Source of the DNA: Octopus vulgaris
Lineage: Eukaryota
DNA: 64,000 bases
NCBI GenBank assembly: GCA_951406725.2
Contig: OX597833.1
Span: 44,516,001-44,580,000, forward strand
Direction of reading: 5' to 3'
Positions 1 to 64,000 of the stretch are shown one piece after another. Position 1 is the first letter of the stretch; the number at the start of each line of letters is the position of its first letter. A program made the position numbers.

Positions 1-3000
1 CCCAGTCCATTGTTCGTTGCGAACGTTTAGGCTAAGTTCTGCTGGAAAGCTGTTTACATCAGTCTGGAATCCGTTGACGTGCTCGATTTAGTCCGTCACA
101 TACCTATGTAGAACTTTGATACTCACTGACTCTATGCAAGTGCTATCAATCGAACGGTTTCTACCCAGTGGGTTTCAGAGATCAGGAGCTAGTATGAACA
201 ACGCATCCTTTGTGATTTGAGTTGAGGAAATGATCAATGATTATTTCCACTACAATTATGCCGTATGACTTTATCCGTTCGCCTTCTAACATATAACCTA
301 CTGCCTTTTCTGATCTACTACCCTCTTTTGCTACCACTTTGTTAAAACTAACAAATGAAATTGGGAACATTCAGAATGGCATTCTTAACAATATTCCTAA
401 TTACTAATTACATAGAAATATACATGCATACCCGCATGCAAAAGACATATACGCGCATGAAAATATAGATATACGCATGTCAAAAATATGCAAAAACTAA
501 TACACATACGTATTTAAAACTAAGCTTGCTCACTGATCTGAGGCTAATAGCAACAATTTTTTTTTAAAAAGCGATAAAATATTAACCAATGTGAACCAAC
601 GATAAGTAGCTCAGCTTTTGTTACGTCATTCCAAACTGATAGTTCGCGCAATTTCTGTTCCAAATGCTTTGCATGTGAAAGTTGTGTAATCTAAGTCTTT
701 CTCTGTTACAAGGTAGTAATACTCCGCATCTACCACAACAAAGCATTTGTCACTATGTGGAACTATCTGTATTTTATAGAGCTTACGCCATAGATTGGGA
801 GTCCCTATGGTCCATTTAAAAGTGACAGTTGGTGGAGAAGGTAACCCAACAATTGCTGTACATCTGATGATCCATGGTCTTACGAAGGTTTTATCACTGA
901 CCATTTCCAGAGACTGTATATGAGATTTCGCTGGAAAAAAATGAATCAATATATGTAATTCTTTCAACAATAAGCCTCACAATAAAATATTGTATATTTA
1001 CACTGATGAAAATTACAATCTTCGTACAACACTGAAATATTTAACAACACTTCCGATGGACCCTTTTCGTTACTGGTTCCAAGTGTTCAAATATCTAACT
1101 TTATAACAAAAGCAATGCTTAAGCAACGTAGAGCCAGACTAATCTGACAATAACTATAGAGACACAGATACAATCATGCACGTATATACATGTGTATGTA
1201 TGTATGTATGTATGTATGTATGTATGTATGTATGTATGTATGTATGTATGTATGTATGTATGTATGTATGTATGTGCATGTTTGAAAGACGCTCCTTTTC
1301 TTTCAATAGAGTCTTCCTTGGAAAACAACTCCAATGGACGTGAGTTGTTTCCGAGCTTTCCATCTACTTTTCTACTGTTTTCGTCACTAAGGAATATTTT
1401 TAGATGTTTGGGAGAATTAATTTTTCAAAACTCTTTACTTTCATATCTATTTTATCTCTCCTCAGCTCTTATGCTGGACACAATCATTTAGAAAATGCGA
1501 ACATTTGAAACGATGTACTCTTTACACTTTTACTTGTTTCAGTCAGTTGACTGCGGCCATGCTGGAGCACCGCCTTTAGTCGAGCAAATCGACCCCGGGA
1601 CTTAGTCTTTATAAGCCCAGTACTTATTCTATCGGGCTCTTTTGCCGAACCGCTAAGTGACGGGGACGTAAACACACCAGCATCGGTTGTCAAGCAATGC
1701 TAGGGGGACAAACACAGACAGACACACACACACACACACATATATATATATATACATATATACGACAGGCTTCTTTCAGTTTGCGTCTACCAAATCCACT
1801 CACAAGGCATTGGTCGGCCCGGGGCTATAGCAGAAGACACTTGCCCAAGATGTCACGCAGTGGGACTGAACCCGGAACCATGTGGTTGGTTAGCAAGCTA
1901 GATGTGTGAACTTTCGTAAACAAAGTTTGTATAGAATTGGAAGCTACCTGTTGGAATGTTTCAGCTATAACGAAAAAAAACACATTCAAAGCGTTCTGAG
2001 ACTATAAGGACACTGCAATTTATCCAACATGCTCCAAATTTTATCGATGATGATCTCGGAAAATCAATGGGAGTCATCACTAAATAAAGTCTGCAATACA
2101 CGGGAAATCCGTTTTATCCATACCAAACAGTTATTTAAGAAGGTTGAAAACCTTCACGAACATGGCAAGCTTTCGTTCTTCTCTGATCAGAAGAACCTCA
2201 ACCAGATGGTTATGTACTGATTTTCTGATGCGTTGAGGTGCTAAGACCTGAATAGATGAAGTACGAAGTGGAAGTCCACCTTCACACAAATCCATGTAAC
2301 TCAAGAATGGATTTCAGGCAATCTTTACTATCATGCAACGCAAAACTTGTATTTCGACAAAAATCTCTTTTTCTTATCGAATTACATTTCGCTTTCGCTA
2401 GATTAGAGTCATTTTATTAAATTACCAAATATTCCTTAAATGTTTCTCGCACCTTATACATCAATTAGCGAAGCATCCACTTCAATCTCCCGAAAGTAGT
2501 ACAACTATGCACTGTACATATTTTCTAGAGTACTTTCAACACACTTAGAAATATTGAATTTCTAAATGTCTCAGAGAGACATGAGCGGTGGTGGGGCGAT
2601 ATAGTGGTTGTATACTGTCAACTCAGCGTGACAAAGGAATCGCACCACTGCTATTTAGCCCTATGAAGCATCGACGCTTCCTGTCGGCTTTGACACATTT
2701 CCTGTGTCCTTATATTTGCAAAGTGGAGGCAAGGACCCCCGCCAGCTAGGATTAGCACCTGAGGACATGCATGTTTCTGGGTCTTGCCCATCATCAGTCC
2801 AGGGTAGTAAGTCCTGCTAGCTGAGATGGCTATATAAAACTGTAGTTGTGTGAGTGTCTGTCCCCTTCGATTTAGATTCCTAACTACTCCCACATTTTGC
2901 GGTGCAGTTTAACCAAATTCGGGTATCTTATAGTTGTGATTCATATCGAGCCCGTCTGAGTATTAGCGCGCGTCTACGATGAGTCTACAATTTTTAAAAT

Positions 3001-63000: not shown

Positions 63001-64000
63001 AAACAAAAAGACTGCGAATAAACTCATACACAAACGAGATGGTTTTGACTGTACTTTAATTGTTGCTTCTAAAGGGGATATTATCTGCTGGAAAATTAAC
63101 AGCACATGCAAAGATGAAGGACCTTACAGATGTGCAACAGATAAAAAATCTTCAAAACCGAAAATATTAACAGGTCAGTTCTTCCCGTTTTGTCTCTTAT
63201 ATTGTTTATATCATTAATCATTAACAGTATTTCGTCCGTCTTTACGTTCTAGGTTCAAATTCCGCCAAGGTCGGCTTTGCCTTTTATCCTCTCGGAGTCG
63301 ATAAGTATCAGTCAAGCACTGGGGTCGATGTAATCGACTTACCCCTCCCCTTCGATTGCTGGCTTTGTGCCAAAATTTGAAACCATTATTCTTCAATAGC
63401 TGTGCGGTAAGGAGTTTACTTCCCAACCACATGGTTCCGGGTTCAGTCCAACTGAAAGGCAAGTGTCTACGACAAGAACCTTATGTTGGGATTCGTAGAT
63501 GGAAACTTAAAGAAGCCTGTCCTCTGTGTGTGTGTGTGTGTGTGTACGGGATGTTTGTGTCTGCGTACGTGTGTGTGTCTTTGTGTCCATTCCACCAACA
63601 CCACCGCTTGGCTTGTATGAGTGCCCGTAACTTAGTGGTTCGGCAAAGAGAATGATAGAATAACTACCAAGTTTTGAAAAGAAAATAAGTACTAGTATAG
63701 AACTAAACCCTTCAAGGCAGTGCCCCAGTATGACTGCAGTCCAATGAATGAAACAAGCAAAAGGAAGTAAAGAAAATTTTTGCTGCCGGTTTTCACACCA
63801 CTTTCGAGCACAAGTCTATACTCCACGAGTACGAGTACAAGTGTTTTCTTTTGGTTTTTTAAGTTTTCGTTGCGTTGCAAGTATTCTTTTACATGTTTCA
63901 GTCATTTGACTGTGGCCATGCTGGAGCAGTGCCTTTAGTCGAGCAAATCGACCTCAGGATCGGTTGTCAAGCGATGTTGTGGGGGACAAACACAGACACA

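What the first reader, a model, noticed from the sequence alone, without database searches (positions are those of the whole stretch)
626..63173. Cluster of secreted Leader-V-C two-Ig-domain genes with a light-chain-like layout in a probable octopus genome
Seen: three complete spliceable genes (224, 218 and ~222 aa) and a fourth V exon. Each has a short signal-peptide exon, a 309-321 nt V-like exon with the D-x-x-x-Y-x-C motif and a ~300 nt C-like exon ending in a stop. All introns are phase 1 with GT/AG, and there is no TM segment or lectin/fibrinogen/chitin-binding domain. The ORF track misses the leaders and so hides the genes. Known: invertebrate variable Ig families (gastropod FREPs/CREPs/GREPs, amphioxus and Ciona VCBPs, Dscam) carry other domains, whereas a bare L-V-C layout recalls antibody light chains. 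Inference: a tandemly expanding, diversifying family of secreted, Lys-rich recognition proteins (immune, mucosal or reproductive). It is probably related to the uncharacterised V+C2 Ig pairs common in molluscs, not homologous to antibodies.
Basis: partly seen in the sequence, partly recalled or inferred. Interest (0 to 1): 0.92.

Follow-up and report, generated by a model that had tools for sequence, protein, structure and literature searches.

The report
Octopus cluster of secreted two-Ig-domain genes
This stretch of the common octopus genome holds a real cluster of small genes, each apparently encoding a secreted protein of two antibody-like (immunoglobulin-fold) domains; the family was found only in octopuses, evolves fast, has no known function, and is not an antibody relative in any specific sense.

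Summary
The window is Octopus vulgaris (100% match to two of its predicted proteins). It carries exactly 4 V-like and 4 C-like exons, with short leader exons, GT/AG sites and phase-1 introns. By arithmetic these give CDSs of 224, 218 and 222 aa.

- Gene A has two near-identical terminal C exons, in a 98.6% identical duplication.
- Gene C has lost the family's start codon.
- A disabled leader copy lies at 33.1 kb.
- The fourth V exon has its own leader at 59.6 kb and belongs to a V-C-mucin subfamily.

Pfam does not recognise the exons. AlphaFold2 gives a confident V-set-like domain plus a 7-strand Ig-like sandwich. The nearest solved structures are CD4 D1D2, light chains, CD58 and BARF1, that is, the generic V-C2 module.

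About 36 representative relatives were found. Of the 32 hits whose source I looked up, 28 are octopod, all uncharacterised. Some relatives carry apparent GPI-signal-like, transmembrane or mucin tails.

There is no RSS and no separate J. Paralogue dN/dS is about 1-1.8, not significantly above 1.

Best reading: fast-evolving secreted binding proteins of a lineage-specific Ig family. Function is unknown and interest is moderate.

The parts
8816..8864 (-). Gene A leader (coding part of exon 1): 16 codons, MLLVIKILMMASYTSA, plus 1 base. Donor gtaagt, phase 1.
   Evidence: The junction codon T+AT = Tyr matches the 'SA-Y' seen in O. bimaculoides RefSeq paralogues.
7199..7519 (-). Gene A V-like exon, 321 nt. 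It encodes a complete V-set-like domain including the G strand.
   Evidence: 100% identical to O. vulgaris P0009 and 72% to O. bimaculoides P0010.
4642..4946 (-). Gene A C-like exon, proximal copy (C_A2), 305 nt including the TGA stop.
   Evidence: Folded directly: pLDDT 92.6, 7 strands. 71% identical to P0010.
626..930 (-). Gene A C-like exon, distal near-identical copy (C_A1), 305 nt including the stop. It differs from C_A2 by 5 substitutions, all nonsynonymous.
1..2831 (.). Distal arm of a direct duplication (98.6% identical to 4019-6847) that carries the C exon of gene A. It may extend beyond the window start.
   Evidence: 27 substitutions, 5 of them in the exon.
4019..6847 (.). Proximal arm of the same duplication.
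27000..27048 (-). Gene B leader: MLLVIKILMMTSYTTA plus 1 base. Donor gtaagt, phase 1.
21590..21898 (-). Gene B V-like exon, 309 nt.
   Evidence: Pairs with O. bimaculoides LOC128250272 in the tree (96/87).
18330..18628 (-). Gene B C-like exon, 299 nt including the TGA stop.
35910..35946 (+). The family's start codon is ATA here. An in-frame ATG at 35817 would give a 43-codon leader.
39697..40017 (+). Gene C V-like exon, 321 nt.
   Evidence: The only exon with a weak Pfam V-set match (E 0.0077, below the cut-off).
40350..40660 (+). Gene C C-like exon, 311 nt including the TAA stop. The V-C intron is only 332 nt.
   Evidence: 57.7% identical to O. bimaculoides LOC128250265.
33149..33193 (+). Disabled leader copy. 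It lies in an inverted duplicate of gene B's 5' region (26860-27647 = 33330-32552, 91.5%). A 4-nt deletion makes ATG CTG CTT TAA.
59565..59622 (+). Gene D leader: MKLLFIITLRPSDNSVSGD plus 1 base. Donor gtaagt, phase 1. The O. bimaculoides models (P0015/P0050, LOC128250266 isoforms X2/X1) start further upstream, at 59490.
62853..63173 (+). Gene D V-like exon, 321 nt. The rest of the gene (C exon and Thr/Pro-rich stalk) lies beyond the window.
   Evidence: 100% identical to the first V unit of O. vulgaris P0011. Orthologue of O. bimaculoides LOC128250266 (100/100).
8901..8922 (-). Conserved 22-nt element TTATATTTYAGTTGCTGGGAGC, 37-61 nt upstream of the leader ATG. Other copies: 27097-27118(-), 33079-33100(+), 35828-35849(+).
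   Evidence: 4 exact matches, 0.01 expected. Its role (5'UTR or promoter) was not determined.

Best explanation
The window holds part of a gene cluster of an octopod-restricted family of the immunoglobulin superfamily.

Genes A, B and C each consist of three parts:
- a short hydrophobic leader exon;
- one exon for a complete V-set-like Ig domain (strands A to G, with no separate J);
- one exon for a 7-strand Ig-like 'C' domain that ends directly in a stop codon.

The products would be small (about 200 aa mature), basic, soluble, secreted two-Ig proteins. Gene D starts a related V-C-mucin-stalk gene that runs off the window.

Shown here: the exon anatomy, the Ig folds, the family and its restriction to octopods among the hits found, the recent duplications, and the fast divergence.

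Inferred: the proteins are secreted and act outside the cell as binding (recognition) modules. Binding would most likely be through the V domain, whose C'-C'' and B-C regions vary most, while a Cys-rich D-E-F face (GFxC...CWK...C.D...Y.C) is invariant. They would work either on their own or as soluble counterparts (ligands or decoys) of the apparently GPI- and membrane-anchored paralogues.

Birth-and-death evolution with dN/dS around or above 1 points to a role under conflict. I rank humoral or mucosal immune recognition first, reproductive recognition second and cell-cell signalling third. No data here decide among them.
For: Gene anatomy.
- 4 V-like and 4 C-like exons, and no others.
- Consensus GT/AG sites, all phase 1, with stops at the end of each C exon.
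- Leaders with a hydrophobic core and a small-x-small end exactly at the exon border.

Independent gene models.
- O. bimaculoides RefSeq proteins of 202-245 aa show the same L-V-C or V-C splicing and the same junction residues: P0010, P0016, P0021, P0027.

Fold.
- P0010 is 72% and 71% identical to gene A's V and C exons. Its model has pLDDT 92.7 and pTM 0.82, with a 9-10-strand first domain and a 7-strand second domain.
- Foldseek against the PDB gives at least 500 matches at E <= 0.001. The top ones are CD4 D1D2 (9.2e-07), light chains, CD58 and BARF1 (TM 0.55).
- Atlas structural neighbours are V-set + C2/I-set proteins, TM 0.61-0.71.
- The window's own C exon folds with pLDDT 92.6.
- The Cys...Trp...Cys triad in C, and Cys...D-x-x-x-Y-x-C in V, are invariant or nearly so.

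Family.
- 40 hits at E <= 1e-3, 33 at <= 1e-10.
- 28 of the 32 looked up are octopod, all 'uncharacterized' or 'hypothetical'.

Evolution.
- dN/dS is 1.32 (V_A/V_B) and 1.68-1.77 (C_A/C_B).
- The two C_A copies differ by 5 nonsynonymous and 0 synonymous changes.
- Exon indels between A and B are multiples of three (12 and 6 columns).
- A and B each have a one-to-one O. bimaculoides orthologue.

Other.
- No anchor in genes A-C; basic V exons.
Against: - No signal-peptide predictor and no RNA data were available. Secretion and expression in O. vulgaris are therefore inferred.
- Pfam does not recognise the exons. Only 1 of 8 gave an Ig-family match, and that below the cut-off. P0010 and P0027 gave nothing at E <= 0.1.
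- The C exon folded alone has no PDB match at E <= 0.001. Its best is 0.011, and the list mixes C1-set domains with unrelated beta-sandwiches.
- dN/dS is not significantly above 1 (p = 0.48, 0.07, 0.13).
- The V exon is about as diverged as its homologous flanks (80.6% vs 84.1%, p = 0.39). That equally fits relaxed constraint.
- Gene C has lost the family start codon and sits on a long branch (0.71). V_A has a 0.32 branch against 0.036 for its orthologue.
- Variability is only slightly higher outside strands (2.41 vs 2.20 bits), with no hypervariable FG loop.
- No canonical poly(A) signal was found within 1.5 kb of C_B, or within 1 kb of C_A2 and C_C.
- The O. vulgaris annotation itself chains units into long models: P0009, P0011, P0012.
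Confidence: 0.6

Rival explanations
1. Some or all copies in this window are decaying duplicates (young pseudogenes) of a family whose functional members lie elsewhere. The open frames are simply not yet broken.
For: - dN/dS is about 1-1.8, not different from 1.
- Exon divergence is about equal to flank divergence.
- Gene C lacks the ancestral ATG.
- One leader copy is frameshifted.
- V_C and V_A sit on long terminal branches.
- The O. vulgaris annotation does not model A-C as L-V-C genes.
Against: - 8 of 8 Ig exons are open over 98-106 codons at up to 50% divergence.
- All family-invariant Cys, Trp and Tyr residues are kept.
- All 11 splice sites are intact.
- Indels between A and B exons are in frame.
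- A and B have one-to-one orthologues with RefSeq models in O. bimaculoides, so both have been kept since the species split.
Confidence: 0.15
2. The exons are units of one or a few long multi-Ig genes (receptor or mucin-like polyprotein), as the O. vulgaris annotation suggests, and not separate small genes.
For: - O. vulgaris models P0009 (314 aa), P0012 (726 aa), P0053 (598 aa) and P0011 (1202 aa, 5 V-C-stalk units) chain several units.
- Gene D's first V exon is the first unit of P0011.
Against: - Each C exon of A-C ends in an in-frame stop that is also the end of the O. bimaculoides orthologue P0010.
- Each gene has its own ATG leader with a conserved upstream element.
- A and B are on the minus strand, C and D on the plus strand.
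- O. bimaculoides and O. sinensis RefSeq relatives are 200-300 aa.
- P0009 skips both C exons and joins V_A to a V-like exon outside the window, which looks like a mis-join.
Confidence: 0.08
3. They are secreted or shed ligands in cell-cell signalling or adhesion (nervous system, development), like vertebrate CD200, nectin/CADM or B7-type V-C2 modules, and are not immune or reproductive molecules.
For: - The structural neighbours are V-C2 ectodomains of adhesion and co-signalling proteins: CADM2/3, MUC18, butyrophilins, Ly-9, CD4, CD58, viral CD200 copies.
- Some paralogues carry a transmembrane segment and a cytoplasmic tail (P0031, P0047) or apparent GPI-signal-like tails (P0029, P0032, P0041, P0043).
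Against: - Wiring and adhesion molecules are usually under purifying selection. Here dN/dS is about 1 or more, and copy number changes quickly.
- No expression data either way.
Confidence: 0.15
4. They are true homologues or functional analogues of antibody light chains (rearranging or somatically diversified antigen receptors).
For: - L-V-C exon order and a length of about 220 aa.
- The family profile's best PDB sequence matches are Fab light chains (E 4.2e-4 and weaker), spanning the end of V and the constant domain.
- Light chains are among the top Foldseek matches.
Against: - The best light-chain sequence matches are engineered Fabs, named '4DS', '5DS' or '6DS' by their depositors. In the two printed alignments (the top hit, a 4DS Fab, and the second hit, antibody H006 Fab) a Cys in the chain aligns with the family's extra Cys, and the E-values are marginal.
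- No RSS: 1 RSS-like site in the window against 0.84 expected, at 16221, not beside a V exon.
- The V exon encodes its own G strand and is spliced directly to C.
- Trp41 is F/L, and no FGxG-type motif appears in the alignment.
- The C exon alone matches C1-set domains only at E >= 0.011.
- CD4 D1D2 and CD58 score as well or better.
Confidence: 0.02

Closest known systems
V + C2 two-Ig ectodomain modules of vertebrate surface proteins (CD4 D1D2, CD2/CD58, CD200, nectin/CADM, B7/butyrophilin, SLAM/Ly-9)
   Same: The two-domain fold is the same: an N-terminal V-set-like domain followed by a 7-strand Ig domain. Foldseek probability is 1.00, E down to 9.2e-07. Atlas TM by query is 0.61-0.71. Some octopod paralogues are also membrane- or apparently GPI-anchored.
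   Different: Sequence identity is only 10-15%. There is no Pfam membership. Genes A-C have no anchor. The family has its own signature of three extra invariant Cys in V and one in C, and F/L in place of Trp41. It was found only in octopods.
Antibody light chains (kappa/lambda)
   Same: Leader, V and C exon order, phase-1 introns, about 220 aa, secreted. Weak profile matches (E 4.2e-4) and Foldseek matches.
   Different: No V-J joining and no RSS. The G strand is in the V exon. Trp41 is absent. The C domain is not clearly C1-set. No specific homology is shown.
EBV BARF1 and other secreted viral two-Ig proteins (function recalled from memory: soluble decoy for CSF-1)
   Same: A small secreted protein made of two Ig domains only. 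It has the best TM-score among the top 50 PDB matches (2ch8_A: TMq 0.55, TMt 0.58). BARF1 and viral CD200 copies also appear in the viral library.
   Different: Viral, 10% identity. The oligomeric state and ligand of the octopus proteins are unknown. The likeness is a functional analogy only.
Invertebrate diversified secreted IgSF recognition proteins: gastropod FREPs/CREPs/GREPs, amphioxus and Ciona VCBPs (domain make-up recalled; FREPs and VCBPs named as such in PMC13428168, passages read)
   Same: Secreted, Ig-domain based, multigene, fast-evolving, in an invertebrate.
   Different: Those carry a C-terminal fibrinogen, lectin or chitin-binding domain. Here the C exon ends in a stop and no such domain is detected. 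No sequence relationship was found: none of them is among the 40 hits.

Membership tests
Immunoglobulin superfamily, V-set domain | Conserved B-strand Cys and F-strand D-x-x-x-Y-x-C | tested here: met
   C24, D87, Y91 and C93 are invariant in the 4 window V exons. D87, Y91 and C93 are invariant and C24 is kept in at least 90% of the 31 family sequences.
Immunoglobulin superfamily, V-set domain | Invariant C-strand Trp (Trp41) | tested here: not met
   The C strand reads NFKLF, NFKLL, YLKVQ or TFELF. There is no Trp in any of the 4 window exons.
Immunoglobulin superfamily, V-set domain | Extra C' and C'' strands between C and D | tested here: met
   DSSP of the P0010 model (72% identical to V_A) shows four strands between B and E: 28-33, 36-44, 49-55, 59-61. 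This is a predicted model of the orthologue, not of the window exon.
Immunoglobulin superfamily, V-set domain | Pfam V-set (PF07686) gathering score | tested here: not met
   1 of 4 V exons matched, at 16.9 bits against a cut-off of 26 (E 0.0077). The other 3 gave nothing at E <= 10.
Immunoglobulin superfamily, constant-type (C1/C2) domain | Cys...Trp...Cys triad and a 7-strand sandwich | tested here: met
   C23, W39 and C86 are invariant in all 24 aligned sequences. The window exon C_A2 folds into 7 strands, pLDDT 92.6.
Immunoglobulin superfamily, constant-type (C1/C2) domain | Assignment to C1-set or C2-set by profile or structure match | tested here: inconclusive
   No Pfam Ig match for any of the 4 C exons. 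Foldseek has 0 matches at E <= 0.001; the best is 0.011, with C1-set domains (MILL2, C-lambda, HLA-DM beta) mixed with non-Ig sandwiches.
Rearranging antigen receptors (Ig/TCR) | Recombination signal sequences flanking V; separate J segment | tested here: not met
   1 RSS-like site in 64 kb against 0.84 in shuffles, at 16221 and not next to a V exon. The V exons end at splice donors and include the G strand.
FREP / VCBP-type invertebrate immune IgSF | C-terminal fibrinogen, lectin or chitin-binding domain | tested here: not met
   The C exons end in stops. No such Pfam domain was found in the window exons or in P0010, P0027, P0047, P0011.
Secreted protein | Cleavable N-terminal signal peptide called by a dedicated predictor; no membrane anchor | not testable with these tools
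   There is no signal-peptide predictor here. By eye, the 16-aa hydrophobic leaders end in T-S-A or T-T-A at the exon border, and relatives have the same pattern. Genes A-C have no hydrophobic stretch after the leader. Gene C's 12-aa leader is marginal.

The most novel reading that the evidence does not exclude
Octopods have evolved their own multigene family of secreted, fast-diversifying V-type Ig proteins, with GPI- and membrane-anchored relatives. It would serve as a humoral or mucosal recognition system, a cephalopod counterpart of snail FREPs or amphioxus VCBPs, built from a bare V-C module like a light chain but germline-encoded. Alternative terminal C exons (gene A) and birth-and-death of copies would add to the repertoire.
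Probability: 0.2. Interest if true: 0.8.

Novelty: new member of a known kind. Interest (0 to 1): 0.4.

Why it matters
Cephalopods are large, long-lived-for-invertebrates animals with no known diversified immune receptors. (This is general knowledge. A 2026 review I read in passages, PMC13428168, lists FREPs, Dscam and VCBPs for other groups; the passages I saw name no diversified recognition family for cephalopods.)

A lineage-restricted, clustered, fast-evolving family of secreted V-type Ig proteins is a reasonable candidate for such a role, or for gamete recognition. It is easy to test by expression profiling and binding assays.

On present evidence, however, it is one more uncharacterised lineage-specific branch of the very common Ig superfamily, already present in databases as predicted proteins. 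The light-chain likeness is only the generic V-C layout.

A practical point: the O. vulgaris annotation mis-joins these units, and Pfam misses them. Domain-based surveys of octopus IgSF genes will therefore undercount this family.

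Tried and rejected
- Pfam on the 8 exon translations and on relatives P0010 and P0027: no usable match.
- The search for homologous proteins with the family alignment: only 4 proteins, fewer than the exhaustive search, so it was not used for counts.
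Nothing was folded, so dimerisation stays unchecked.
- Disulfide pairing of the four extra invariant Cys: not determined, because model coordinates are not exposed.
- Exon-versus-flank divergence as a test for diversifying selection. The result depended on how the flanks were delimited:
  - 88.1% flank identity with the (CTT)n microsatellite included;
  - 64.0% with non-homologous sequence included;
  - 84.1% with BLAST-delimited flanks.
  Only the last is used, and it shows no difference.
- Enrichment of substitutions in the duplicated C exon (5 of 305 nt against 22 of 2526 nt) with all 5 nonsynonymous. By my own arithmetic (0.78^5 = 0.29, from the share of nonsynonymous sites) this is not significant, so I make nothing of it.
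- Poly(A) signals: none within 1.5 kb of C_B; the first is at about 1.0 kb for C_A2 and C_C. Uninformative.
- RSS scan: negative.
- Seven literature searches, including six gene identifiers (0 papers). None of the listed titles or abstracts, nor the passages read in PMC13428168 and PMC4199593, describes this family.
- Supplementary tables of octopus transcriptome and proteome papers were closed and may hold expression values for these loci.

Full report
**How the work was done.** Every search and fold used single-exon translations of the window (P0001-P0008) or database proteins returned by searches, and CDS lengths come from adding exon lengths. The two-domain structure discussed below is that of a database protein of Octopus bimaculoides (P0010), not of a joined window sequence.

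**1. What is in the sequence.**

The window has no N, is AT-rich (GC 0.29-0.43) and is full of microsatellites and dispersed repeats.

Stop-to-stop ORFs include four V-like and four C-like frames. tblastn of their translations back on the window finds these eight loci and no further copy. Exon borders follow from the AG and GT positions in frame.

| Gene | Strand | Leader | V exon | C exon |
|---|---|---|---|---|
| A | - | 8816-8864 | 7199-7519 (321 nt) | 4642-4946, second copy 626-930 (305 nt each) |
| B | - | 27000-27048 | 21590-21898 (309 nt) | 18330-18628 (299 nt) |
| C | + | 35910-35946 | 39697-40017 (321 nt) | 40350-40660 (311 nt) |
| D | + | 59565-59622 | 62853-63173 (321 nt) | beyond the window |

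- All acceptors are pyrimidine tract + (c/t)ag.
- All donors are GT (gtaagt after the leaders).
- Every intron is phase 1.
- Every C exon ends in a stop.

The split codon at the leader-V junction is Tyr in all four genes. O. bimaculoides RefSeq paralogues have the same '...SA-Y-...' at that place. The V-C junction gives Ala or Val, as in P0009 and P0010.

**2.

- *Gene A has two C exons.* The block 1-2831 repeats 4019-6847 at 98.6% identity. Gene A therefore has two terminal C exons with identical acceptors, differing by 5 substitutions, all nonsynonymous. Whether this is a real very recent duplication or an assembly artefact cannot be told here.
- *Gene C has lost the family start codon.* Where A, B and the O. 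bimaculoides orthologue have ATG, gene C has ATA. The first ATG gives only MIILTMTSYTSA. An in-frame ATG at 35817 would give a 43-codon leader.
- *A disabled leader copy.* An inverted 91.5% copy of gene B's 5' region holds a leader at 33149-33193 with a 4-nt deletion, so that the ATG frame reads ATG CTG CTT TAA.
- *A conserved upstream element.* A 22-nt element sits 37-61 nt upstream of these four leaders. It has 4 exact matches against 0.01 expected. In O. bimaculoides isoform X1 models this stretch is inside the predicted CDS, so it may be 5'UTR and not promoter.
- *Gene D has a leader.* Its leader, MKLLFIITLRPSDNSVSGD, was found with the O. vulgaris model P0011.

**3. Source and family.**

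V_A is 100% identical to an O. vulgaris 'hypothetical predicted protein' (P0009). V_D and its leader are 100% identical to another (P0011, CAI9737738). The window is therefore O. vulgaris.

A profile of the four V exons was run against 1.84 billion representatives. It found 40 proteins at E <= 1e-3, of which 33 were at <= 1e-10 and 6 at <= 1e-30. I looked up the source of 32 of the 40:

- 28 are octopod (O. vulgaris, O. bimaculoides, O. sinensis, Argonauta hians);
- 1 has no name;
- 3 are weak non-cephalopod Ig proteins (Hydra titin-like, a fish/ferret record, Betta).

Eight hits were not looked up. No squid, cuttlefish, Nautilus or other mollusc protein appeared. With a profile of only four sequences this does not exclude distant relatives there.

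All named members are 'uncharacterized' or 'hypothetical'. UniProt's automatic names for a few are 'Ig-like' or 'V-set domain-containing'.

Accession numbers and locus numbers run in series:

- CAI9737727-738 and CAI9737145-157, on one 73.6-Mb O. vulgaris sequence;
- LOC128250265-272 in O. bimaculoides.

So the family sits in clusters.

O. bimaculoides and O. sinensis RefSeq models are 200-300 aa with L-V-C or V-C structure (P0010, P0016, P0021, P0024, P0027). O. vulgaris models chain several units (P0009, P0011, P0012, P0053). P0009 skips both C exons of gene A and continues into a V-like exon that is not in the window, so the cluster continues beyond coordinate 1.

More distant members end in one of three ways, as read from the sequences:

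- a hydrophobic tail after small residues, looking like a GPI signal (P0029, P0032, P0041, P0043);
- a transmembrane segment plus cytoplasmic tail (P0031, P0047);
- Thr/Pro-rich stalks (P0015, P0011).

A maximum-likelihood tree of the V domains (31 rows) gives these pairings:

| Window exon | O. bimaculoides partner | Support |
|---|---|---|
| V_A | LOC128250270 | 99/93 |
| V_B | LOC128250272 | 96/87 |
| V_D | LOC128250266 (mucin type) | 100/100 |
| V_C | clade with LOC128250265, LOC128250267, LOC106882073 | 99/97 |

The A/B duplication is thus older than the split of the two species. V_A (0.32 against 0.036 for its orthologue) and V_C (0.71) sit on long branches.

**4. Are they Ig domains?**

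*By sequence profile: barely.*

- Only V_C touches Pfam V-set (E 0.0077, 16.9 bits against a cut-off of 26).
- Six of the eight exons have no match at E <= 10.
- P0010 and P0027 have none at E <= 0.1.
- The family profile against PDB sequences gives at best E 4.2e-4, to Fab light chains. Most of the top six carry '4DS', '5DS' or '6DS' in their names. In the two printed alignments (the top hit, a 4DS Fab, and the second hit, antibody H006 Fab) a Cys in the chain aligns with the family's extra Cys.

*By structure: yes.*

- P0010 was modelled with a 38-row family alignment. It gives pLDDT 92.7 and pTM 0.82.
- Domain 1 has strands A, A', B, C, C', C'', D, E, F and a broken G. Domain 2 has seven strands.
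- Foldseek against the PDB returns at least 500 matches at E <= 0.001. The list is led by CD4 D1D2 (9.2e-07), lambda light chains, CD58 (TMq 0.46) and BARF1 (TMq 0.55).
- TM-scores are low (0.3-0.55), as expected when the angle between domains differs.
- The Atlas's own model has V-set + C2/I-set neighbours (CADM2/3, butyrophilins, MUC18, Ly-9) at TM 0.61-0.71.
- The viral library gives CD200 copies and BARF1.
- The window's own C exon (C_A2) folds with pLDDT 92.6 into seven strands. Alone it finds no PDB match at E <= 0.001. The best, at 0.011-0.02, are C1-set domains (MILL2, C-lambda, HLA-DM beta), IL-18 receptor and binding-protein Ig domains, and unrelated sandwiches.

I therefore call it an Ig-like C-type domain of undetermined set.

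*Family signatures.*

- V domain: C24...[F/L in place of Trp41]...G-F-x-C66...C78-W-K...C85-x-D87...Y91-x-C93.
- C domain: C23...W39...C62...D78...C86.
- The pairing of the four extra Cys is unknown.

**5. Evolution.**

| Comparison | dN/dS (Nei-Gojobori) | Fisher p, dN vs dS |
|---|---|---|
| V_A vs V_B | 1.32 | 0.48 |
| C_A1 vs C_B | 1.68 | 0.13 |
| C_A2 vs C_B | 1.77 | 0.07 |
| Older pairs | 0.6-1.1 | not tested |

None of the three tested values is significantly above 1.

With flanks limited to the BLAST-homologous part and without the microsatellite, the V exon is 80.6% identical and its flanks 84.1% (p = 0.39). Two other flank definitions gave opposite answers and were dropped.

The exons therefore change about as fast as neutral DNA. 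Even so, all eight stay open, keep every framework residue and splice site, and have only in-frame indels (12 and 6 columns).

Column entropy over the family:

- highest in the C'-C'' loop and C'' strand (3.1 and 2.8 bits), the DE and BC loops (about 2.6) and the FG loop (2.5);
- lowest in D (0.8), EF (1.4) and F (1.7);
- strands against non-strands differ little overall (2.20 against 2.41).

This fits a conserved Cys-rich face and a variable opposite edge. It is not the sharply hypervariable pattern of antigen receptors.

There is no RSS: 1 RSS-like site against 0.84 expected, and not at a V exon.

**6. Interpretation.**

Shown:

- a cluster of separate small genes for leader + V-like Ig + C-like Ig;
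- a family found only in octopods;
- a family with apparently anchored and mucin-stalk relatives;
- recent duplication and partial decay;
- fast divergence.

Inferred:

- secretion, from the leader shape, the absence of any later hydrophobic segment and the stop right after the C domain;
- extracellular binding as the function.

I rank immune or mucosal recognition first, reproductive recognition second and cell-cell signalling third. The ground is the evolutionary mode alone. No expression or binding data were reachable.

Rivals:

- Pseudogene decay is a live option for gene C.
- A multi-unit gene is a live option for gene D.
- Antibody homology is rejected.

**7. Literature.**

Seven full-text searches, including six locus identifiers, found nothing on this family.

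- In PMC13428168 I read passages only. Those passages name FREPs, Dscam and VCBPs for other groups and describe only haemocytes and the white body for cephalopods.
- In PMC4199593 I read one passage. It mentions only LRR-containing IgSF transcripts in O. vulgaris haemocytes.
- Supplements were closed, so expression tables that may list these loci were not seen.

**8. Verdict.**

The thing is a new, uncharacterised, octopod-restricted branch of the Ig superfamily with a generic V-C layout. It is a fair candidate for a recognition family and easy to test, but on present evidence it is not extraordinary.

Noticed in passing
window 23582-24616 (+): A 344-codon open frame for a PIF1-like helicase (Pfam PIF1 E 4.4e-62, Pif1_2B E 7.1e-15). 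It is probably a Helitron-type transposon remnant. It lies inside intron 1 of gene B, on the opposite strand.
   Followed up: partly
window 28241-28663 (+): Mariner-type transposase fragment (Pfam Transposase_1, E 1.1e-24), between the divergently oriented genes B and C.
   Followed up: partly
window 7566-8000 and about 21950-22100: Long (CTT)n/(GAA)n microsatellites lie in intron 1 of genes A and B, about 46-50 nt upstream of the V-exon acceptor. On the sense strand they read as a very long pyrimidine tract, at the same place in both paralogues.
   Followed up: no
window 1518-1900, 5530-5914, 34189-34633, 38175-38588, 39244-39639, 45096-45518, 45681-46102, 55188-55595 and others: A dispersed repeat of about 400 bp (SINE-like), with more than ten copies at 82-94% identity on both strands. 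One copy ends about 60 nt upstream of the V exon of gene C.
   Followed up: no
window 53995-55025; 56989-58169; 46560-47850; 56240-57020: Tandem arrays with offsets of 217 bp and 518 bp. Also a microsatellite block of about 1.3 kb, AT-rich and reading as Tyr-Ile repeats in the ORF list, and a block of about 0.8 kb, G-rich on the plus strand and reading as Pro/Thr or Gly/Trp runs. This last block gives spurious tblastn matches to the mucin stalk of P0011.
   Followed up: no
O. vulgaris protein models P0009, P0011, P0012, P0053 (outside and across the window): The deposited O. vulgaris annotation chains neighbouring V/C units into long 'hypothetical' proteins and misses the leaders and C exons of gene A. 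P0009 joins V_A to a V-like exon that is not in the window, so the cluster continues beyond coordinate 1.
   Followed up: partly
window 8901-8922(-), 27097-27118(-), 33079-33100(+), 35828-35849(+): An exactly conserved 22-nt element lies upstream of four leader copies. Gene D's leader region has no copy.
   Followed up: partly
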